Origin: Candidatus Saccharimonadia bacterium
GTDB lineage: Bacteria; Patescibacteriota; Saccharimonadia; UBA4664; JBBRNT01
Direction: 5' to 3'
DNA length: 64,000 nt
Assembly: GCA_038230095.1 (NCBI GenBank)
Contig: JBBRNT010000003.1
Coordinates: 9,811 to 73,810, forward strand
A model generated the notes under the pieces. It made no database searches and was not told where the DNA came from. It saw only the letters and a list, made by a program, of their open reading frames with translations. Shown in pieces: positions 33,561-58,965 of the stretch (its first letter is position 1; the number at the start of each line of letters is the position of its first letter). Made by a program: the position numbers and the translations under genes.

Positions 33561-33932
33561 ATGGAGCAGCTGCCGCCAATGTTTGCCGACCGGGTCTACG
33601 CGCTGGTAGCGCGGATCCCACGGGGGCGCGTCATGACCTATGGGCAGATTGCAGCACTGTGCGGGAGCCCACGAGCAGCCAGGCAGGTGGGCCAGGTGGC
33701 GCACTGGGGGCCGATGGATCTGCCCTGGCAGCGTGTGGTAAATAAGCAGGGGGGACTGGCTGGTGGCTACACTACAGGTGGGCGGGCGGCGCACAAAGCA
33801 GACCTGGAGGCCGATGGGGTGGCCGTGAGTGACGACTACAGTGTAGATATAGCGCGGCTTACCTGGTGGCCGCAGGACTTGACGCCCGAGCACCAGCCCC
33901 TACCGCTGCCCAAACAAGATAATCTTTTGTAA
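33561..33932 (+). CDS. alkyltransferase-like (ATL) protein: MGMT DNA-binding domain with Trp in place of the active-site Cys (PWQRV)
   Basis: YGQIAALCGSPRAARQVG helix-turn-helix + PWQRVVN instead of PCHRV. Confidence 0.75.
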   Translation: MEQLPPMFADRVYALVARIPRGRVMTYGQIAALCGSPRAARQVGQVAHWGPMDLPWQRVVNKQGGLAGGYTTGGRAAHKADLEADGVAVSDDYSVDIARLTWWPQDLTPEHQPLPLPKQDNLL

Positions 33933-34858
33933 TGAACATGATGGTAAATACTACGGAACCCAAGCTGGTTATTATTCTCGGCCCCACGGCATCGGGCAAA
34001 TCTGATCTTGGCATGGAACTGGCCAGACGGTTTAATGGCGAGATAATAGCGGCCGATTCACGGACGGTATACCGTGGGATGGACATTGGCACTGCTAAGC
34101 CTAGCCTCGGTGATCAGACTGAAATACAGCACTGGGGTCTAGACTTGGTTGAGCCGAATGAGCCGTTTAATGCTGCACAGTTTAAGGCCTATGCTAATGC
34201 TGCGGTTGCTAATATTGCCGGCCGAGGGAAACTGCCAATAATGGTAGGTGGGACTGGCTTGTACATAGATGCTGTACTTTATGACTATCGGTTTCCGACT
34301 GGCGACGACATTGCAAAACGCAGCGAATATGCGGCGATGGGCGTGGGGAAATTGCTTGAATTGCTGCAAATAAATAATCCCGATAAATACGCTGTAATTG
34401 ACCATGCGAATAAACGACGAATTATTCGGGCCTTAGAAAATAATCAGAATAATGAAAACAAATCGGGCAGTCCCAGACCGCAGACACTGGTGCTGGGGCT
34501 GGAATTGAACAAAGAAATTATTCAATCTAGGATTGAGCTAAGAGCCAAAAAAATGCTTAGCAAAGGCATAATCGAGGAAGTACGCAGGACTGGCGAAACA
34601 TTTGGATGGGACTCTGAGGCCATGTCTGGAATTATTTATCGAGTATTTAAAATGATTGCCCAGACGGGTGAAAATAATCCTGAAATAATCGAAGCTGCAC
34701 TGGCGGAGTTTATAGCCAGCGACAAAAAATTGGTGAAAAAACAGTTGACATGGTTTCGGCGAAGCCCACACATAACGTGGCTAAACGCAGCCGATCCGGC
34801 CGTGCTGGTTGCCCAGGCGGACGGGCTAGTTCGGACATTTGTAGCCACTGACTTATAA
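33932..34858 (+). CDS. miaA: tRNA dimethylallyltransferase
   Basis: P-loop GPTASGKS, conserved AADSRTVYRGMDIGTAKP and VGGTGLY motifs; TAATG overlap. Confidence 0.9.
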   Translation: MNMMVNTTEPKLVIILGPTASGKSDLGMELARRFNGEIIAADSRTVYRGMDIGTAKPSLGDQTEIQHWGLDLVEPNEPFNAAQFKAYANAAVANIAGRGKLPIMVGGTGLYIDAVLYDYRFPTGDDIAKRSEYAAMGVGKLLELLQINNPDKYAVIDHANKRRIIRALENNQNNENKSGSPRPQTLVLGLELNKEIIQSRIELRAKKMLSKGIIEEVRRTGETFGWDSEAMSGIIYRVFKMIAQTGENNPEIIEAALAEFIASDKKLVKKQLTWFRRSPHITWLNAADPAVLVAQADGLVRTFVATDL

Positions 34859-41660: not shown

Positions 41661-41884
41661 TCGACAGGCGGCTCGCCCGGTATACTAGAAGGGTCTCTGC
41701 CTCATTCGCTGATGGCTGCTTATTTTTCTCTGTTATATTCTTTTTGGGAGCCTAAGATTGCTCCTGGCCTTGGCCTGGATGCTGCGGGCACCCACCTGCT
41801 ACTTGGCAGGGAAAGAATGTGCGGTCGGGCGGTGAAGCGGAGCGCAATTATTTGACGGCTATGGCCGTCCTTCTCGTTGGCGAT

Positions 41885-41924: not shown

Positions 41925-42000
41925 CAGGGTGTAGCTTAGTTGGTAAAGCGCTGGGCTGGGGGTCCAGAGACCGCAGGTTCAAGTCCTGTCACCCTGACCA
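41925..42000 (+). tRNA. tRNA-Pro (anticodon GGG), CCA encoded
   Basis: cagggtg acceptor, anticodon arm ctggg-ctGGGgg-tccag, T-arm gcagg-ttcaagt-cctgt. Confidence 0.88.
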
Positions 42001-42137: not shown

Positions 42138-42689
42138 ATGATTACGTTCCAACCCTACGACGAGCGGCACCACGCCGAGCAGCTGCGAGACTGGCTGAAC
42201 ACCCCCCATGTCTACGCCTGGTGGGGCAGGGAGCGCCTGCCTGAGTCTATTGGCGGGGCGGGGAAGGCCGCGGCCACGCTAGATGAGGTGCACCGAGACT
42301 TCGGAGTGGGTGATGCTGATACACACTATTACATGACGCTACTTGATGGCCGGCCAATAGGGCTTACACAGTGGTGCCGGGTGGATGACTATGCGGGCTA
42401 CCCAGAAATGTTAGGCGTGGTGGACGCTGTAGGGATTGATCTGCTGATTGGCGAGGAGGGGGCTACCGGTAGGGGTATTGGTACGCGGATAATCCGCCAA
42501 TTCACCCAGAAAGTGGCTATGCCGGGCTCGGGCTTGAACGTAGCTGTGGCGGACCCGGAGGAGGCCAATGTGGCGTCCTGGCGGGCATTTGAGAAAGCTG
42601 GCTACAGGCACATTAAGACATTTGAGGGTGAGCGCGGGCATGTGACACGGCTAATGATGTTCAGCGAAGAGCCTGCTTCTAGTAATTAA
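42138..42689 (+). CDS. GNAT-family acetyltransferase (aminoglycoside-N-acetyltransferase-like)
   Basis: 183 aa; RGIGTRIIRQF acetyl-CoA-binding region. Confidence 0.65.
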   Translation: MITFQPYDERHHAEQLRDWLNTPHVYAWWGRERLPESIGGAGKAAATLDEVHRDFGVGDADTHYYMTLLDGRPIGLTQWCRVDDYAGYPEMLGVVDAVGIDLLIGEEGATGRGIGTRIIRQFTQKVAMPGSGLNVAVADPEEANVASWRAFEKAGYRHIKTFEGERGHVTRLMMFSEEPASSN

Positions 42690-42734
42690 CCAGTAACATG
42701 GTTATGCTTGAGACAATTAACTGGAGCGCGTGCT

Positions 42735-43457
42735 ATGATGCGCCGTTTGCTGAATATTCGCCTGAGCTTCTTCTACCCAATTGTATTTATTGCTTTCCTG
42801 CTTATCCTGACACACATAAAACGAGTGACACTGACGAGCGGGCAGTTAACGCTCTTCTCGGTAAACTCCTTCCTATATGCCTACTATCTGGGGCCTATTC
42901 TAGGGGCTCAGAAAGCGCGCGTGGACGACCTGAGTAATACCGTACGATCAGAGAACATGGTCATGCTGGACATACTAGCGCAGGCCCATCTGCTGCCAGC
43001 AGCCGACCGCAAAGCGTTGAAAACCAGGGTGGCGGCCTACTTAGACAGTATTATTGGCAATCCAGATGTGGGGGCTGAGAATGAACACTATGATGCCTTG
43101 CTTCAGTTCCTGACTCAGGAGAAGTACAGGAGTAACTCGACTATGGGTACAATTCTTGCTCGATTCACGAAGACCCAAGAAAACCGCGATAAAATCTCTT
43201 TGCAGCTAGCACGCCGCATGTTTAGCCATGAGTGGATGGTGCTGCTGGTACTCTTCATGATTACCATCTACTTTATCGTTCAGGTTGACTATGGCAAGTC
43301 GCTGTTGTTTACAGTAATTGCAGCGCTCCTGTGCACTGGACTAAGCTTACTTATATTTATTTTGGCTAAATACGCTACACTTACCCATAAACAGGCTAAA
43401 CAGATCTGGAAGCCTCTCGAAAAGTTGCGCGCATCCCACTTTACGGATATTGCCTAG
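42735..43457 (+). CDS. hypothetical membrane protein (about 240 aa)
   Basis: ATGATG start; 2 N-terminal and 2 C-terminal TM helices. Confidence 0.5.
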   Translation: MMRRLLNIRLSFFYPIVFIAFLLILTHIKRVTLTSGQLTLFSVNSFLYAYYLGPILGAQKARVDDLSNTVRSENMVMLDILAQAHLLPAADRKALKTRVAAYLDSIIGNPDVGAENEHYDALLQFLTQEKYRSNSTMGTILARFTKTQENRDKISLQLARRMFSHEWMVLLVLFMITIYFIVQVDYGKSLLFTVIAALLCTGLSLLIFILAKYATLTHKQAKQIWKPLEKLRASHFTDIA

Positions 43458-43602: not shown

Positions 43603-43634
43603 AAGATTGAAAAATATACTCGTATCTGGTATAA
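43603..43634 (+). promoter_or_regulatory. rnpB promoter TTGAAA-17-tcTGGTATAAT
   Basis: Extended -10 of the recurring motif; TSS about 43641. Confidence 0.6.
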
Positions 43635-43640
43635 TAGATA

Positions 43641-44041
43641 AGCTAGATTGCTAGATGATCGCTTAGGCTGCAAGGCCTGGGAGGAAAGTCCGGACAGCAT
43701 AGAGTAGGACGGTTGCTAACGGCAACCGGGAGTACGTTCGACCATTCTTTCTCTCGAGAAAAGACCGGTCGAGCCAAGCCTAGGGAAAGTGCCACAGAAA
43801 CGAAACCACCCAGCGTAAGCTGGGAACGGGTGAAACGCGCGAGGTAAAAGCTCGTAGTCGCCATGGGTGACCATGGTGGGAGGCAAACCCCGTCCGCTGC
43901 AAGGCAGTTAGTCTACCCCAAGGGGCGTTACTCGCGTCGACTAACGGGTGTCCGCACGAGACTATTGGCAACAATAGTCCCAGATAGATGATCATCGCCC
44001 TGCAAGGGGAGACAGAATCCGGCTTACCGGCAATCTGGCAC
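43641..44041 (+). ncRNA. rnpB: RNase P RNA, bacterial type A
   Basis: GGAAAGTCCGG (P4 5' strand), gccacAGAAA, ACAGAATCCGGCTTA (P4 3' strand), P1 pairing agattgc/gcaatct; about 400 nt without ORFs. Confidence 0.85.
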
Positions 44042-44045
44042 TAGA

Positions 44046-44078
44046 ATACTCACTCCTAGGAGAGAGTATTTTTGTTTT
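44046..44078 (+). terminator. terminator hairpin after rnpB (atactc...gagtat + TTTTGTTTTG)
   Basis: 6-bp stem + T-rich tail. Confidence 0.55.
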
Positions 44079-44112
44079 GAGCTATACTGCATTCAAAGTA
44101 TGGAGACGTGTA

Positions 44113-45105
44113 ATGAGTGCCCTGGAGCATGAAGGTAGCGAGCAGTCTGCAACAAGCATAGATACAGCACAACAGCTGAGTAGCGAGCTAGAGGCTATTC
44201 ACACTGTGGCAGAGGTAGCTGATGACAGTAGCGAGTCCGCTCCCCTCATGCCCGAGCGCGAAGCGGTGGAGCATGGCCACTGGTCCGAGCCATTTCCAGA
44301 TTGGATGGAGAAAATGCGAGATCCGGAAATGGGCTTCTATCCGGCAAAAGTGGCTGAGCTGAAGCGCATATTTGCCTTACTAGACCATGCCAGTGACGAT
44401 GAGTTGCGCATTGGTTTCGGCACCATCGGACTGCCGCCGGATGTGATTGCTACTATACCCGGGGACGAGCGCGAAGCATTTTGTCACCTAGATGACCTAG
44501 AGCTCCAACTCCCATTAGGATCTAAGAAGAGAATGGAAGAGGGGAGCTGGGAGTCGGGGGTTATGGCTCGACTCACCGAAAGGCTGCCGGATACATTTAC
44601 GCTCATTCGAGCAGATATGAAGCGGCTGGGAATAGAGGAGTGGGGCCTGGAACCGGTAGCTATTCGTGCAAATCATACCTACATGGTAAAGCCGCCGGGC
44701 GGTAACCCAGGATGGCACCTGGATAACCTCAACTCCGAATACGATCCTAGGACCGTACGGTACCTTATGACGGATAATCTGCCGACTATGTCGCGAGTTG
44801 GGGAGGCCCATGTCGATCTAGGTGATCATATGGCTCGTATCTATGATGAATTTACCGGGGCACCAATACCGGAAACAGTTAGGCCTATGCACTATAAGCC
44901 GGGTACCGGGCTTTCAAATCACCTGATGGTTAATCCTGGTACGGCTGTCGTTGGCACTGCGGGAGATAATTTTGATATTATGCGATTCGGTTTAGCGGAT
45001 GAGCATGTGGCACCTTTTCTTGAAGGTGCTGGTGCTGATACACCTCAGCAGGAGATAACCCGGACGTTTGTATTCTTACAGGCGGTACCACCAAGGCCAG
45101 CCTAA
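44113..45105 (+). CDS. hypothetical protein, paralogue 1 of a tandem pair (possible HxD...H Fe(II)/2OG-oxygenase-like core)
   Basis: ATG 44113 with ggaga RBS (maximal ORF from TTG 44077); about 35% identical to the next gene over about 300 aa. Confidence 0.55.
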   Translation: MSALEHEGSEQSATSIDTAQQLSSELEAIHTVAEVADDSSESAPLMPEREAVEHGHWSEPFPDWMEKMRDPEMGFYPAKVAELKRIFALLDHASDDELRIGFGTIGLPPDVIATIPGDEREAFCHLDDLELQLPLGSKKRMEEGSWESGVMARLTERLPDTFTLIRADMKRLGIEEWGLEPVAIRANHTYMVKPPGGNPGWHLDNLNSEYDPRTVRYLMTDNLPTMSRVGEAHVDLGDHMARIYDEFTGAPIPETVRPMHYKPGTGLSNHLMVNPGTAVVGTAGDNFDIMRFGLADEHVAPFLEGAGADTPQQEITRTFVFLQAVPPRPA

Positions 45106-45124
45106 GACTTCGGATTCCGGCATC

Positions 45125-45133
45125 TGGTACAAT
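45125..45133 (+). promoter_or_regulatory. extended -10 promoter atcTGGTACAATgg
   Basis: Recurring motif; precedes paralogue 2. Confidence 0.5.
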
Positions 45134-45169
45134 GGCTGCAAAAATCTATGCACAAGAAAGGCAATATAC

Positions 45170-46210
45170 ATGCAAGACACTACTGAACTACCGCAAAAAG
45201 ATGAACGAGCAGATTTCTCAGGTGCTTCGCTTGCATTGGAGCTCGAGGCCTCATCTAGCGCTAACCCTGATAGTGACGGGCTCCTGGTGCTCACCCATGA
45301 AGATGAGCTATCGCCAGAGTCCCAGAAATCTGCTGAGGAACAGGCGTTGGACCTGCAGAGCCCGCATTGGTCTGCTGAGTTCCCGGATTGGGTAGAGCGC
45401 CTATCCGATCCCGAGCTGGGCTACCACCCCGCCAAGGTCAAGGAGATCAGGCGAATTCTACATTTGATCGAGAATGCCGATGAAGACTCGTTGAGAGTGG
45501 GCTTTGGTACGGTATCTTTGCCGGCCGATGTGGTCGGACGAGTTCCGCAGTCGGAGCAGCAGGCGTTTCGGGAACTTGATGATCTAGAATTGGAACGGCC
45601 ACTTTCTCCAGATAGAAAGCGCCTAGATTCAGAGTATGGGCGCCGCGTCATGCAAGAACTAGAAGCACGATTACCTGAAACTATCGCTGTAATCCGGGAG
45701 GATCTTCAAAGGCTAGGGCTAGCTGATTGGACCATCGGCCTGTTAGCAATTCGAGCCAATCATCCAACAGATGCGAAGGGTTTTGGATGGCATATTGATG
45801 ATCTAAGTAGCGAATATGATCCTCGGACGCCGCGCTGGCTGATAGCGGACAGAGTAGCAACCAACTCCATGGTTGGCGAGAACCATATCTCATTTGGCGG
45901 CGTCCATGACAACCCATATGATCAGTACACCGGGAAGATTCGGTCTCTTAAGCTAACCCCTGCGACCTATAAGCCGGGTGACCCGCTAGCCAATAGATTG
46001 GGGAGCCCACAAGGAGCGGTTGTAGAGGGTAGTGCAGGAGGAAATTATGATATTCAGCGCTTTGGCTTAGCAGATGTACACTGTGGTCCGTATACTAATG
46101 ATCCTGCGGTTGAAGCGGCACTGAACACTGAGAAACGTACGTTTATCTTCCTACATGCCTTGCCGCCAGATCAGTTACCAGAAGTTTCAGTAGACTGCCC
46201 AAGCTCTTAG
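45170..46210 (+). CDS. hypothetical protein, paralogue 2 of the tandem pair
   Basis: ATG 45170 downstream of its own promoter; shares HWS.EFPDW...GFGT..LP.DV...LDDLEL...AIRANH...WH.D.L.SEYDPRT...RFGLAD blocks with 44113-45105. Confidence 0.55.
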   Translation: MQDTTELPQKDERADFSGASLALELEASSSANPDSDGLLVLTHEDELSPESQKSAEEQALDLQSPHWSAEFPDWVERLSDPELGYHPAKVKEIRRILHLIENADEDSLRVGFGTVSLPADVVGRVPQSEQQAFRELDDLELERPLSPDRKRLDSEYGRRVMQELEARLPETIAVIREDLQRLGLADWTIGLLAIRANHPTDAKGFGWHIDDLSSEYDPRTPRWLIADRVATNSMVGENHISFGGVHDNPYDQYTGKIRSLKLTPATYKPGDPLANRLGSPQGAVVEGSAGGNYDIQRFGLADVHCGPYTNDPAVEAALNTEKRTFIFLHALPPDQLPEVSVDCPSS

Positions 46211-46221
46211 AGCCTGGTATC

Positions 46222-46230
46222 TGGTACAAT
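46222..46230 (+). promoter_or_regulatory. extended -10 promoter atcTGGTACAATag
   Basis: -10 ends 14 nt before ATG 46245 (very short leader). Confidence 0.5.
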
Positions 46231-46244
46231 AGCCACATCATTCT

Positions 46245-47699
46245 ATGCGCAAGAAAAGCGAACTCATCCTCAACCTATTGCTCCTGCCGATAGACGGTCT
46301 GGCTGTGCTGTCGGCATTTGTGTTGGCCTACATTCTACGCGTTAAGCTAGATGGGCGGCCGGTGGCATACCCGATCGGAGCCATGCTATTTCTGAAGATT
46401 GTGCTCTTTGCGGTACCGGTCTGGATTATTATTTTTGCACTGGCCGGTCTATACAACATGACGAGCATTAATCGCCGATTTGCCGAGCTGGGTAAGATTG
46501 TGGTGGGCGTGTCCGGTGGCGCTATGACCCTGATACTGCTCGATTTTTTCAGCCGCCAGCCGATATTCCCATCGCGAGCCATCCCGGTCTACGGCTATGG
46601 CCTAAGCCTAGTGCTGGTAGTGCTGGGACGAACAATCTGGCGCGCGTTTGTCCGGTCGCTGAATAGATATGGGATTGCGGTGCAAAATGCGGTGGTGGTG
46701 GGGAGTGGCCCAATTGCACGAATGATCATCGCAGACCTCACACGAAGCCCTAAGACTGGCTACCAGGTAGTGGCTGTGCTAGAGACGGCGAGGCACGCCG
46801 GAAAGCAGCTGCGACCAATACCGGTCTACCGCAGCATAGAGTCGTTGGTCAAAGCCCACGGACTGGATATTCAGGTGGTTATACAGGCGGACTCGGCACT
46901 AACACCCGGCGAGGTACAGAACCTGGTTAACTATGCTAGCAGTCACCATTGGCGTTACCGGTTTGTACCTAACCAGTTCGGCATGTTTGCGACTAACGCA
47001 GAGTTTGCCACGATAGCTGGGCTGCCAGTGATTGAGATATGTCGCACCCCGCTCGATGGCTGGGGGCGGATTGTGAAGCGTCTCTTCGATGTATTTGGCG
47101 CTTTAGCGGGTATGGTAGTACTGTCTCCGTTATACCTGGTAATAGCTATTATCTCAAAGCTGACGGACCCTGGCCCGGTGTTCTATAGCCATAAGCGAGT
47201 GAGTCGTAGTGGTGCGCCAATCCAGGTGTACAAGTTCCGAACTATGACCTACAAGTGGTCGCCACGGCCCGGGTACAAGTACACCACAGCCGAAGAGGCC
47301 TTGATTGGTATGGGTAGGCCCGATCTGGTTGAGGAGTTCAAGAAGTCGCAAAAACTGGAGCATGATCCTCGAGTAAATGCCTTTGGGAGGTTCCTGCGTC
47401 GCAGTAGCCTAGATGAGCTCCCGCAGCTCTTCAATGTACTGCGTGGTGAGTTGTCGCTGGTAGGCCCACGGCCTGTGGTAGAGGCTGAGCTAGAGCGCTA
47501 TGGTGACCAGGCTGCGGCGTTCCTATCCCTGAAACCAGGTATTACGGGTATGTGGCAGGTGTCGGGCCGGAGCGACATTGGCTATGATGAGCGGGTGAAG
47601 TTAGACATATACTACGTAGAGAACTGGTCGTTGCTGCTGGACATTCAGATCCTCATTAAGACCTTTGTAATAATCCTACGTGGGCGGGGAGCCTACTAG
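46245..47699 (+). CDS. polyprenyl glycosylphosphotransferase (bacterial sugar transferase, WbaP/EpsL-like)
   Basis: N-terminal TM bundle + C-terminal sugar-transferase domain with SLVGPRP and DIYYVENWS motifs. Confidence 0.85.
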   Translation: MRKKSELILNLLLLPIDGLAVLSAFVLAYILRVKLDGRPVAYPIGAMLFLKIVLFAVPVWIIIFALAGLYNMTSINRRFAELGKIVVGVSGGAMTLILLDFFSRQPIFPSRAIPVYGYGLSLVLVVLGRTIWRAFVRSLNRYGIAVQNAVVVGSGPIARMIIADLTRSPKTGYQVVAVLETARHAGKQLRPIPVYRSIESLVKAHGLDIQVVIQADSALTPGEVQNLVNYASSHHWRYRFVPNQFGMFATNAEFATIAGLPVIEICRTPLDGWGRIVKRLFDVFGALAGMVVLSPLYLVIAIISKLTDPGPVFYSHKRVSRSGAPIQVYKFRTMTYKWSPRPGYKYTTAEEALIGMGRPDLVEEFKKSQKLEHDPRVNAFGRFLRRSSLDELPQLFNVLRGELSLVGPRPVVEAELERYGDQAAAFLSLKPGITGMWQVSGRSDIGYDERVKLDIYYVENWSLLLDIQILIKTFVIILRGRGAY

Positions 47700-48817
47700 T
47701 GGACGGCTTACGGGTAGCATTGGTACACGACTGGCTTACTAACCAGGGCGGGGGTGAGCGAGTCCTGTGGTCGCTGCACTTGGCCTTTCCGGATGCGCCC
47801 ATCTACACCTCGGTGTTTGAGCCGGCAGTGATGACTCAGTTCGCTGATCTAGACGTGCGGACGTCGTTCTTGCAAAAGTGGCCTCTGGCGCGTAAGAAGC
47901 ATCAGCTGTTTCCGGCCCTACGTACTATGGCTTTTGAGTCATTTGATTTCTCGGAATACGATGTAGTTATTAGTACTAATTCTGCCGAATCGAAAGGCAT
48001 TATTACCGGTCCTAAAACCCTACATATTAACTACATTTTCACCCCTACTCGCTACTACTGGAGCGGCTACCATGACTACTTGGCTCAGCCAGGAATGGGG
48101 CGGCTGAACGGGTTGGTGCGTAGAGTAATGCCTCGCGTAGTTAGCCGGATGCGTCAATGGGACTATGCGGCGGCCCAACGCGCAGATATGGTTGTTGCTA
48201 TCTCCGAGTATGTAGGTGCGCGAGTAACTAAGTACTACCGCCGCGATTGGGGTGTGGTATACCCGCCAGTAGAGGTAGACCGCCTCAAGCCAGCGGCTAA
48301 GCGTGGAGACTTCTACCTGGTGGTGTCACGGCTCATACCATATAAACGGGTAGATCTGGCTGTGGCCGCCGCAAGGGAGCTTAATCTACCGCTGATTGTC
48401 ATAGGCGACGGGAGTGAACGAAGCCGTCTAGAGGCCATGGCTGGCCCAAAAACCCAGTTCCTCGGCCGACGTAGCGACGCGGAGGTGGCAGAGTACTATG
48501 GAAAAGCCAAGGCCTTCCTATTTACCGCTGATGAGGATTTTGGAATAACACCCCTAGAGGCCATGGCAGCCGGCGCGCCGGTAGTGGCGTTTGGCCGGGG
48601 TGGCGCATTAGAGACGGTGGTGCCAGGTAAGACGGGCGTGTTCTTCTCGGAGCAGACGCCGTCATCGCTGATCCAGGCGCTGAAGCACCTGGATACGCTT
48701 AAGCTTGATACGCTGACTATTCGTAAGCAGGCCGAGCGCTTTAGCGAGCGCCGGTTTATCGTGGAAATGCAGCAGCTGGTGAGACGGGCTATAGCAAGCC
48801 GGCAGTCAGACAACTAA
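47699..48817 (+). CDS. family-4 (GT-B, group 1) glycosyltransferase
   Basis: EDFGITPLEAMAAGAPVVA... E-x7-E motif region; ATGA-type overlap with upstream gene. Confidence 0.85.
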   Translation: MDGLRVALVHDWLTNQGGGERVLWSLHLAFPDAPIYTSVFEPAVMTQFADLDVRTSFLQKWPLARKKHQLFPALRTMAFESFDFSEYDVVISTNSAESKGIITGPKTLHINYIFTPTRYYWSGYHDYLAQPGMGRLNGLVRRVMPRVVSRMRQWDYAAAQRADMVVAISEYVGARVTKYYRRDWGVVYPPVEVDRLKPAAKRGDFYLVVSRLIPYKRVDLAVAAARELNLPLIVIGDGSERSRLEAMAGPKTQFLGRRSDAEVAEYYGKAKAFLFTADEDFGITPLEAMAAGAPVVAFGRGGALETVVPGKTGVFFSEQTPSSLIQALKHLDTLKLDTLTIRKQAERFSERRFIVEMQQLVRRAIASRQSDN

Positions 48818-58586: not shown

Positions 58587-58965
58587 CGGGGCTGACCAGC
58601 TTTGACGTTTGGACTTTTACAACCTAGCTTGCAAGCCGTAGGTATGCGTTAAATCCACCAATCAATAGATGCAAACTCTATCGTATCGCGCGTGAAGGCT
58701 CTGTTCGCAGCTCCTTCATTCGCACCAGCTTTCGCCTAATCGCCTAAGCCATCGACCTCCTGACGCCAGATAGGGGCCGGCCGGTGCCAAATTATCTGAC
58801 TGCTTTACAACTGAGATATGCGTTGTAATTAAGACTACAATCTGCTCCTCATTCTTATTTCGTTTACTTCAAGAGGATGGGGCTAAGACAACAAAGTAAA
58901 CTACGCTTGTAGACGGCTGGGTTGTATCCAGACGGACCCGGGTGCAATTCCCGGCAGCTCCTCCA
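58587..58965 (+). ncRNA. ssrA: tmRNA (SsrA)
   Basis: 5' GGGGCTGA + ctttgacg (cf. E. coli GGGGCUGAUUCUGGAUUCGACGGG); 3' ggacccgggtgcaattcccggCAGCTCCtCCA (cf. E. coli ggacgcggguucaacucccgcCAGCUCCACCA); G3:U wobble in acceptor; resume site aatagatGCAAAC (cf. AAUAGUCGCAAAC); tag ORF 58670-58738. Confidence 0.9.

What the first reader, a model, noticed from the sequence alone, without database searches (positions are those of the whole stretch)
44113..46210. Tandem diverged paralogues of unknown function with independent promoters, between rnpB and the surface-glycan genes
Two proteins of 330 and 346 aa are collinear over about 300 residues. Shared blocks are HWS(E/A)(P/E)FPDW, GFGT..LP.DV, LDDLEL, AIRANH, WH(L/I)D(N/D)L(N/S)SEYDPRT and RFGLAD(E/V)H. 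Each has its own ATCTGGTACAAT extended -10. The conserved H-x-D followed by distal His and Arg resembles the facial triad of Fe(II)/2-oxoglutarate (PhyH-like) oxygenases, but that is only a guess. They lie immediately upstream of a WbaP-like sugar transferase and a GT4 gene, so a glycan- or lipid-modifying role is plausible.
Basis: inference. Interest (0 to 1): 0.55.

Follow-up and report, generated by a model that had tools for sequence, protein, structure and literature searches.

The report
Orphan gene pair inserted beside rnpB
Two neighbouring genes in an uncultured Saccharimonadia (TM7) bacterium are real, diverged copies of one protein with no detectable relative in public data; they are a lineage-specific insertion between the RNase P RNA gene and a sugar-transferase gene, and their function, including the proposed oxygenase role, is unresolved.

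Summary
The paralogue observation is correct. g1 (44113-45105, 330 aa) and g2 (45170-46210, 346 aa) are 45% identical over 272 residues (E 7e-88). Codon-position identities of 0.59/0.66/0.35 show both are selected coding genes.

The promoter claim is half right. The exact TCTGGTACAAT motif lies before g2 and before wbaP, not before g1.

New findings:
- The window is a Saccharimonadia chromosome. In 14 relatives rnpB ends 19-120 nt upstream of wbaP; a fifteenth has rnpB inverted, 187 nt away. Here the gap is 2,202 nt and holds only g1 and g2.
- The g1-g2 spacer carries a copy of the wbaP promoter plus a relic of the first five wbaP codons. The ancestral gene was therefore duplicated in place together with that promoter.
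- No homologue exists beyond the two proteins themselves in 1.84 billion representative proteins or in the genome, metagenome, viral, phage and plasmid collections.
- Pfam, NCBIfam, PHROGs, PADLOC and PDB sequence searches give nothing.
- Both AlphaFold models are unreliable (pLDDT 41-43), and fold searches on the better one return noise.

The Fe(II)/2-oxoglutarate oxygenase idea rests only on motif resemblance in two sequences. It is neither supported nor excluded. Relatives with the same wbaP-GT4 pair lack these genes, which weakens the glycan-role argument. Interest is low to moderate.

The parts
43607..43635 (+). rnpB promoter: TTGAAA, 17 nt spacer, TG-extended TATAAT (the TCTGGTATAAT motif)
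   Evidence: scores it 11/12 with an upstream TG. One search gives an exact motif match at 43625-43635. The -10 ends 7 nt before the rnpB 5' end.
43643..44042 (+). RNase P RNA gene (rnpB, bacterial class A)
   Evidence: RF00010, 247.1 bits, E 3e-79, full model.
44040..44079 (+). rnpB intrinsic-terminator-like hairpin followed by UUUUUGUUUU
   Evidence: -12.9 kcal/mol, z -3.0, 0 of 200 shuffles fold as well. Palindrome I3.
44113..45105 (+). g1: 330-aa acidic soluble protein (pI 4.7) with an acidic, low-confidence N-terminal ~55 aa and a conserved ~275-aa domain
   Evidence: It is identical to the NCBI/Logan protein P0001. It has no family hits.
45100..45162 (+). Repeat D1, copy 1. It holds a duplicated wbaP promoter (TGG TACAAT at 45125-45133) and a relic of the wbaP start (ATG CAC AAG AAA GGC, 45148-45162). 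That ATG opens a 12-codon uORF, 45148-45186, out of frame with g2.
   Evidence: 63 nt, 71% identity, spacing 1097; 45/63 is the best non-self match in the window, the next best is 32, z about 8.5. The 29 nt downstream of the -10 alone match 21/29, with the next best 18.
45170..46210 (+). g2: 346-aa paralogue of g1
   Evidence: It is identical to the NCBI protein P0002.
46197..46259 (+). Repeat D1, copy 2. This is the ancestral wbaP promoter (TGG TACAAT at 46222-46230) and the true wbaP start (ATG CGC AAG AAA AGC, 46245-46259).
   Evidence: Relatives carry TGnTACAAT-type -10 elements at the same place before an MRK(K/R)SEL start.
46245..47699 (+). WbaP-like initiating phosphoglycosyl transferase. 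It is the conserved neighbour of rnpB in relatives.
   Evidence: Bac_transf 3.7e-62, CoA_binding_3. (44-58% identical orthologues in Saccharimonadia MAGs).
47699..48817 (+). GT4 glycosyltransferase, the conserved partner of wbaP

Best explanation
Shown:
- g1 and g2 are real protein-coding paralogues of a taxonomically restricted (orphan) gene.
- The gene sits between the rnpB terminator and the wbaP promoter of one Saccharimonadia lineage. That junction is only 19-120 nt long in 14 relatives (187 nt in a fifteenth, where rnpB is inverted).
- The g1-g2 spacer holds a second copy of the wbaP extended -10 promoter and a decayed copy of the wbaP start, with the same 14-nt spacing between them.

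Inferred:
- The gene was gained in this lineage and later duplicated in tandem, in place. The ~1.1-kb unit ran from just after rnpB to the fifth codon of wbaP.
- g2 is transcribed from this captured promoter.
- g1 has no comparable promoter. It depends on read-through of the rnpB terminator or on a weak -10-only site.
- No terminator-like site was found in the 34 nt that separate g2 from wbaP, so transcription from the g2 promoter probably also feeds wbaP-GT4.

The products:
- Both are acidic and lack hydrophobic N-termini, so they are presumably cytoplasmic proteins of 36-38 kDa.
- Each has a poorly conserved acidic N-terminal tail and a ~275-aa globular domain kept under purifying selection.
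- They are accessory. They are not part of the conserved WbaP-GT4 pathway.

Biochemistry is not determined. My best guess, at about 0.15-0.2, is a metal-dependent enzyme with a beta-rich C-terminal half, possibly a very divergent double-stranded-beta-helix oxygenase.
For: - Paralogy: E 7e-88.
- Coding selection: identity at codon positions 1/2/3 is 0.59/0.66/0.35. pN is 0.37 and pS 0.78, which is saturated.
- Lineage and synteny: WbaP relatives are all Saccharimonadia or Patescibacteria MAGs at 58% identity or less. The order M50 ... rnpB-wbaP-GT4-(rplT rpmI infC)-DAGK is conserved.
- Insertion: the rnpB-wbaP gap is 19-120 nt in 14 relatives and 187 nt, with rnpB inverted, in one. It is 2,202 nt here.
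- No g homologue lies near wbaP in 81 loci.
- Duplication junction: repeat D1. Promoter homology with relatives.
- Orphan status: an exhaustive HMMER profile search of 1.84e9 representatives returns only P0001 and P0002. Word-indexed searches of 5.8e9 clusters find only the proteins themselves. Both are singleton clusters. Nothing was found in genome, metagenome or viral contigs, phages or plasmids.
- Atypical codon usage: GC3 is 0.50 and 0.48 against a mean of 0.61 and sd of 0.047 for 47 ORFs. Codon-fit z scores are -2.6 and -3.9.
- Protein properties: pI 4.6-4.7, and 13 acidic residues in the first 55.
Against: - There is no expression data, so promoter use and read-through are inferred from sequence alone.
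- Synonymous sites between g1 and g2 are saturated, yet the 29 nt after the -10 remain 72% identical. That needs either constraint on the relic leader/uORF or gene conversion. Either would blur the simple one-step duplication story.
- Low GC3 also occurs in a housekeeping gene (miaA, 0.466), so codon usage is weak evidence for foreign origin.
- The nearest sampled genome is distant (WbaP 58%). 'Gained here' cannot be separated from 'gained earlier in an unsampled clade'.
- Nothing constrains the biochemical function.
Confidence: 0.7

Rival explanations
1. One reading: both proteins are divergent Fe(II)/2-oxoglutarate (PhyH-like) dioxygenases. They would use an H202-x-D204...H298 facial triad and R317 to bind 2OG, and they would hydroxylate or otherwise modify the WbaP-initiated glycan or a lipid.
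For: - H202, D204, H298 and R317 are invariant in both paralogues.
- By eye, using my own knowledge of AlkB and P4H-type motifs, the order AIRANH / GWHxD / RYLMTD ... GDNFDIxRFGLADxH ... RTFxFL resembles strands I, II, III, VI, VII and VIII of a double-stranded beta-helix. The long variable stretch falls where such enzymes usually carry inserts.
- The low-confidence AlphaFold models put strands at AIRANH, GWHxD and RTFxFL.
- The genes have the same orientation as wbaP-GT4 and lie tight against it.
Against: - No Pfam or NCBIfam hit to any 2OG, cupin or PhyH model was found, with whole proteins or halves, at E<=10.
- No 2OG oxygenase appears among PDB sequence hits at E<=10, although these enzymes are numerous in the PDB by my own knowledge.
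- hhalign against E. coli AlkB gives probability 0.2%.
- Fold searches on the core model return noise.
- Five of the 13 His in g1 are conserved, about the overall 44% identity, so His conservation is not special.
- The distance from H298 to R317 is 19 residues, longer than the 9-11 typical of PhyH, TauD and PHD (my own knowledge).
- Fifteen relatives with the same wbaP-GT4 pair lack the genes.
Confidence: 0.15
2. The pair is cargo left by a mobile element or phage, such as a defence, anti-defence or host-interaction factor of this episymbiont. It would have integrated next to the 3' end of an RNA gene, with the mobility genes since lost.
For: - The position is immediately 3' of a structured RNA gene. 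Such genes are classic integration targets for tRNA and tmRNA (my own knowledge).
- The insertion is lineage-specific.
- Codon usage is atypical.
- There are no homologues in cellular genomes.
- The rnpB terminator here is AT-rich, unlike the GC-rich hairpins of relatives.
Against: - There is no integrase, transposase or other extra ORF in the 2.2-kb insert.
- No att-like duplication of the rnpB 3' end and no terminal inverted repeats were found.
- PADLOC gives nothing. PHROGs gives only one marginal hit (phrog_1843, E 0.016-0.03, g1 only).
- Nothing was found in IMG/VR, INPHARED phages or PLSDB plasmids.
- The one tblastn hit (Arthrobacter phage Chubster gp79, E=6) has hhalign probability 0.3%.
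Confidence: 0.15
3. The ORFs are not functional genes. They would be chance ORFs or decaying pseudogenes in an expanded spacer.
For: There are no homologues and no expression data. AlphaFold confidence is low.
Against: - Both are intact ORFs of more than 330 codons.
- Paralogue similarity is strongest at codon positions 1 and 2 and near random at position 3.
- 63% of aligned residues are conservative matches.
- g1 has a good GGAG Shine-Dalgarno sequence.
- No alternative frame or strand shows similarity to anything.
Confidence: 0.02

Closest known systems
Taxonomically restricted (orphan) genes of Candidate Phyla Radiation / Saccharibacteria genomes
   Same: There is no detectable homologue outside one lineage. 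The genes are accessory and sit inside an otherwise conserved syntenic backbone. Their codon usage is atypical.
   Different: Two diverged copies allow a direct demonstration of purifying selection. The duplication junction is still readable as a captured wbaP promoter and start relic.
Fe(II)/2-oxoglutarate-dependent oxygenases (PhyH PF05721, AlkB-like 2OG-FeII_Oxy_2 and related double-stranded-beta-helix families)
   Same: There is a conserved H-x-D, a distal His about 95 residues later and a downstream Arg on a hydrophobic, strand-like segment. The C-terminal half has low helix propensity.
   Different: There is no significant sequence or profile match to any member or model, and no reliable structural model. 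The His-to-Arg spacing is longer than in PhyH and TauD. Membership is not established.
Promoter capture by tandem segmental duplication
   Same: A duplication unit that includes the downstream gene's promoter and first codons places a second copy of that promoter in front of the distal paralogue.
   Different: The captured promoter is that of a conserved glycan-initiating transferase. The relic start codon now opens a 12-codon uORF overlapping the g2 start. Whether that uORF does anything is unknown.
Genomic islets integrated at the 3' ends of tRNA/tmRNA genes
   Same: A lineage-specific insert lies directly 3' of a structured RNA gene.
   Different: It has no integrase, no att repeat and no mobility genes. 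The target is rnpB, which is not a usual integration site.

Membership tests
Fe(II)/2-oxoglutarate oxygenase superfamily (PhyH-like) | Significant sequence or profile match to a curated 2OG-oxygenase or cupin family model, or to a solved member | tested here: not met
   Pfam gives 0 families for whole proteins, and no 2OG-oxygenase or cupin model among half-protein hits at E<=10 (one marginal Phage_TAC_7 hit, E 0.15). NCBIfam gives only a VWA_dom_MadC hit at E 0.054. PDB phmmer/hmmsearch at E<=10 returns no oxygenase. hhalign against AlkB gives probability 0.2%.
Fe(II)/2-oxoglutarate oxygenase superfamily (PhyH-like) | Double-stranded beta-helix (jelly-roll) core fold | tested here: inconclusive
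Fe(II)/2-oxoglutarate oxygenase superfamily (PhyH-like) | Conserved HxD/E...H facial triad plus an Arg/Lys that binds the 2OG C5 carboxylate | tested here: inconclusive
   H202, D204, H298 and R317 are invariant. There are only two sequences at 44% identity, and 5 of the 13 His in g1 are conserved, about the background rate.
Fe(II)/2-oxoglutarate oxygenase superfamily (PhyH-like) | Fe(II)- and 2OG-dependent catalysis | not testable with these tools
   This needs purified protein.
WbaP/GT4 surface-glycan gene cluster (functional membership) | Conserved co-localisation with wbaP-GT4 across related genomes | tested here: not met
   None of 15 relatives has any gene between rnpB and wbaP. tblastn of g1 and g2 against 81 wbaP loci gives no hit.
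Integrative genomic islet at an RNA-gene 3' end | Integrase or recombinase, plus a flanking direct repeat of the RNA gene's 3' end | tested here: not met
   The sense strand carries only g1, g2 and one 87-aa ORF nested out of frame inside g2. The repeats found duplicate the wbaP promoter, not rnpB, and there are no terminal inverted repeats.
Taxonomically restricted (orphan) gene family | No homologue outside the lineage despite exhaustive search, with evidence that the ORF is under coding selection | tested here: met
   Searches show no relatives. One search shows the codon-position pattern, with pN 0.37 well below pS 0.78.
In-situ tandem segmental duplication | Head-to-tail paralogues with constant register and a junction that carries sequence from the downstream flank | tested here: met
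   Register is 1075-1114 nt throughout. Repeat D1 contains the wbaP promoter and five wbaP codons, 45/63 identical, the best non-self match in the window.

The most novel reading that the evidence does not exclude
The conserved ~275-aa domain is a previously unseen enzyme family, either a new fold or an extremely divergent non-haem-iron oxygenase. It would be confined to one Saccharimonadia clade and wired by promoter capture into the wbaP-GT4 transcription unit. There it would tailor the episymbiont's surface glycan or otherwise mediate host interaction.
Probability: 0.1. Interest if true: 0.55.

Novelty: new member of a known kind. Interest (0 to 1): 0.25.

Why it matters
As it stands, this is one more piece of CPR 'dark matter': a selected protein family with no relatives and no assignable fold.

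It has two modest points of value. First, it is a clean, datable example of how an orphan gene becomes established. It was inserted into a 19-120-nt conserved spacer, then duplicated in tandem in a way that captured a neighbouring gene's strong promoter. Second, the pair is a well-defined target for structure prediction by single-sequence methods or for experimental structure determination.

If the domain proved to be a new enzyme acting on the WbaP-initiated glycan, it would bear on how Saccharibacteria vary their surfaces. Nothing here shows that.

Tried and rejected
- Pfam, NCBIfam, PHROGs and PADLOC scans of whole proteins, plus Pfam and PHROGs scans of N- and C-terminal halves, found nothing usable. 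The marginal hits phrog_1843 (E 0.016, g1 only), VWA_dom_MadC (E 0.054) and Phage_TAC_7 (E 0.15) were judged noise.
- PDB sequence searches with single proteins and with profiles returned only an OsmC-family protein, PCNA, ZapB, L19 and the N-termini of GNAT toxins, at E 0.08-2. All are short, inconsistent matches.
- All three allowed word-indexed homologue searches and the single exhaustive HMMER job found only the two proteins themselves. One search was a parameter error.
- Genome, metagenome and viral contig scans used tool-chosen peptide patterns and my own degenerate pattern for WHxD....EYDPRT. They gave 0 relatives.
- tblastn against phages and plasmids gave one hit each at E 5-6. I followed the phage hit, Arthrobacter phage Chubster gp79 (phrog_8725). 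hhalign probability is 0.3%, so I rejected it.
An attempt to collect AlkB relatives from viral contigs to build a profile found none. I did not pursue profile-profile tests further. A 2-sequence query (Neff 1.4) adds little beyond the deep Pfam profiles already scanned.
- I considered other motif readings by eye: a Rossmann GxGxxG (GFGTIG in g1, but GFGTVS in g2), a nucleotidyltransferase G[GS]...DxE (spacing too long, and LDDLEL is modelled as helix), HNH, and SAM-methyltransferase motif I. None is conserved or supported.
- An internal repeat between the N- and C-terminal halves is not significant.
- Origin from another frame, strand or local gene was tested by tblastx and blastn of the insert against the window and 82 loci, with no result.
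- Literature searches for SRR19962015 and for rnpB as an integration site gave nothing relevant.
Full report
**1. What is there**

The + strand holds two ORFs. g1 runs 44113-45105 (330 aa) and g2 runs 45170-46210 (346 aa). These lengths match the database entries for these two proteins, P0001 and P0002.

BLASTP aligns g1 residues 56-327 with g2 residues 66-333 at 45% identity and 63% positives, E 7e-88. No third copy exists in the window.

The neighbours are as stated:
- rnpB lies at 43643-44042 (RF00010, 247 bits).
- A WbaP-like Bac_transf/CoA_binding_3 gene lies at 46245-47699, followed by a GT4 gene at 47699-48817.
- rplT, rpmI and infC follow on the opposite strand.

**2. Are they genes?**

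Yes. On the codon alignment, identity at positions 1/2/3 is 0.59/0.66/0.35 in the core. pN is 0.37, while pS is 0.78, which is saturated. This is the pattern expected from long-term purifying selection on both copies.

g1 has a GGAG 7 nt before its ATG. Both proteins are acidic (pI 4.6-4.7). Neither has a hydrophobic N-terminus. The first ~55 residues are acidic (13 D+E), poorly conserved and modelled without confidence.

**3. Promoters**

TCTGGTAYAAT is a recurrent motif in this genome. With up to one mismatch it occurs 7 times, against 1.66 expected, and all 7 are on the + strand.

The four exact copies are:
- 16682.
- 43625, the rnpB promoter, whose -10 ends 7 nt before the RNA's 5' end.
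- 45123, before g2.
- 46220, before wbaP.

Upstream of g1 there is only ATCTGGCACTAGAAT, which overlaps the rnpB 3' end. After it comes a terminator-like hairpin with a U-tract (-12.9 kcal/mol, z -3.0). The consensus scan finds no promoter in front of g1.

**4. Organism and synteny**

The WbaP-like protein finds its best relatives, at 44-58% identity, only in Saccharimonadia, Saccharibacteria and other Patescibacteria MAGs. No GTDB representative is close.

The backbone order M50 protease ... rnpB-wbaP-GT4-(rplT rpmI infC)-DAGK-like gene is conserved in these relatives. The rest of the window is housekeeping: miaA, murT/gatD, Nramp, a ChlI-like ATPase, galT-like and an MGDG-synthase-like GT.

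**5. The pair is an insertion**

In 14 relatives rnpB ends 19-120 nt upstream of the wbaP start codon, on the same strand. These are L002-L005 and L007-L016. In L006 rnpB is inverted, 187 nt away.

In the window the gap is 2,202 nt and contains only g1 and g2. tblastn of g1 and g2 against all 81 fetched loci finds nothing.

**6. How the pair arose**

A 63-nt direct repeat links 45100-45162 with 46197-46259. It is 71% identical, with a spacing of 1097 nt, the same register as the coding paralogy. It is by far the best non-self match in the window: 45/63, with the next best at 32, z about 8.5.

Both copies contain ATCTGGTACAAT, then 14 nt, then ATGC(A/G)CAAGAAA(G/A)GC. The 29 nt downstream of the -10 alone match 21/29, with the next best at 18.

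- At 46245 this sequence is the true wbaP start (MRKKS). Relatives have the same MRK(K/R)SEL start, with a TGnTACAAT-like -10 in front.
- At 45148 it is a relic (MHKKG). It opens a 12-codon uORF that ends at 45186 and is out of frame with the g2 ATG at 45170.

From this I infer an ancestral order of rnpB-terminator-g-P(wbaP)-wbaP. A tandem duplication followed, with a unit that ran from just after rnpB to wbaP codon 5. As a result g2 inherited a copy of the wbaP promoter.

One point remains unexplained. The relic stays 72% identical although synonymous sites are saturated. That implies either constraint on the leader or gene conversion.

**7. Relatives elsewhere**

None were found.
- A HMMER profile of the two paralogues, read against 1.84 billion representatives of about 15 billion proteins, returns only the two proteins themselves.
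- Three word-indexed searches agree.
- Both proteins are singleton clusters.
- Pattern-plus-tblastn scans of GTDB species genomes, JGI metagenomes and IMG/VR find nothing.
- A degenerate DNA pattern for WHxD....EYDPRT finds nothing.
- tblastn against phage and plasmid records gives only E 5-6 noise. One of those hits was followed up and rejected.
- The only other occurrence is a Logan contig that is 100% identical to the window.

**8. Fold and function**

- No Pfam, NCBIfam, PADLOC or credible PHROG family matches, with whole proteins or, for Pfam and PHROGs, with halves.
- PDB sequence and profile searches at E<=10 return short, inconsistent matches and no oxygenase.
- AlphaFold2 with the only available alignment (two sequences) gives pLDDT 40.6 for full g1 and 43.0 for the g2 core. 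The C-terminal half is unmodelled.

The oxygenase hypothesis therefore stands only on motif resemblance.
- In its favour, H202-x-D204, H298 and R317 are invariant. By eye, the order of hydrophobic segments resembles strands I-III and VI-VIII of a double-stranded beta-helix. That comparison rests on my own knowledge, not on a tool result.
- Against it, His residues are conserved no more than average, and only two sequences exist. hhalign against AlkB gives probability 0.2%.

I rate it about 0.15.

**9. The glycan argument**

Adjacency to wbaP-GT4 results from an insertion into the rnpB-wbaP spacer. Relatives with the same transferase pair do without these genes, so guilt by association is weak.

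It is still true that g2 ends 34 nt before wbaP with no terminator-like site called there. Transcription from the g2 promoter probably continues into wbaP-GT4.

**10. Origin**

Codon usage is atypical. GC3 is 0.50 and 0.48 against 0.61 +/- 0.047 for 47 ORFs, and codon-fit z scores are -2.6 and -3.9. This hints at foreign origin or low expression. However, miaA has a similar GC3.

The insert has no integrase, no att-like repeat and no terminal inverted repeats. Alternative frames and local DNA show no similarity to it. Its source is unknown.

**11. Verdict**

- The oxygenase and glycan interpretation is unsupported but not excluded.
- What is actually there is an orphan gene pair. It was created by a lineage-specific insertion followed by an in-situ tandem duplication that captured the wbaP promoter.
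- This is a known kind of event, and such orphan genes are commonly reported in CPR genomes. Interest is low to moderate.

Noticed in passing
window 5090, 16682, 30197, 39215, 43625, 45123, 46220 (all + strand): TCTGGTAYAAT, an extended -10 with a fixed TC prefix, recurs 7 times with up to one mismatch against 1.66 expected. It sits in front of rnpB, tRNA-Val (30231), wbaP and g2. It looks like this genome's strong-promoter consensus.
   Followed up: partly
L014 9274-9900 (JAYRII010000015.1, Saccharimonadia MAG): The RNase P RNA hit spans 627 nt instead of about 330-430. The cmscan alignment shows an AT-rich insertion of about 220 nt inside the hairpin at model positions 126-147 (which I take to be P12), plus a 53-nt expansion further 3'.
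   Followed up: partly
window 41691-41847 and 41925-42000; L012 8318-8477 and 8480-8552: 6S RNA is directly followed by a tRNA gene, both in the window (tRNA-Pro GGG, 77 nt downstream) and in relative L012 (2 nt downstream). This suggests a conserved 6S-tRNA co-transcription unit in this clade.
   Followed up: no
window 42138-42689 and 42708-43457: A GNAT acetyltransferase and a bestrophin-like membrane protein lie between tRNA-Pro and rnpB. Neither has a counterpart (E<1e-5) in the relatives' loci, so the interval upstream of rnpB is a second variable spot.
   Followed up: partly
window 46225-46247: Only 14 nt separate the wbaP -10 hexamer from its ATG and no Shine-Dalgarno sequence is visible. 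This predicts a near-leaderless wbaP mRNA. The relatives read have 11-25 nt between their -10-like hexamer and the ATG.
   Followed up: no
L006 9423-9813 (OY970378.1): In this complete-chromosome MAG rnpB is inverted relative to wbaP, with a 187-nt gap, whereas 14 other relatives have it co-oriented.
   Followed up: no
window 33932-34858: miaA (IPP transferase) has the lowest GC3 (0.466) of 47 long ORFs, lower than the orphan pair. GC3 alone is therefore not a reliable marker of foreign DNA here.
   Followed up: partly
window 58588-58965: A tmRNA gene (RF00023, 108 bits). L012 also has a tmRNA about 10 kb downstream of wbaP, so the synteny extends at least that far.
   Followed up: no
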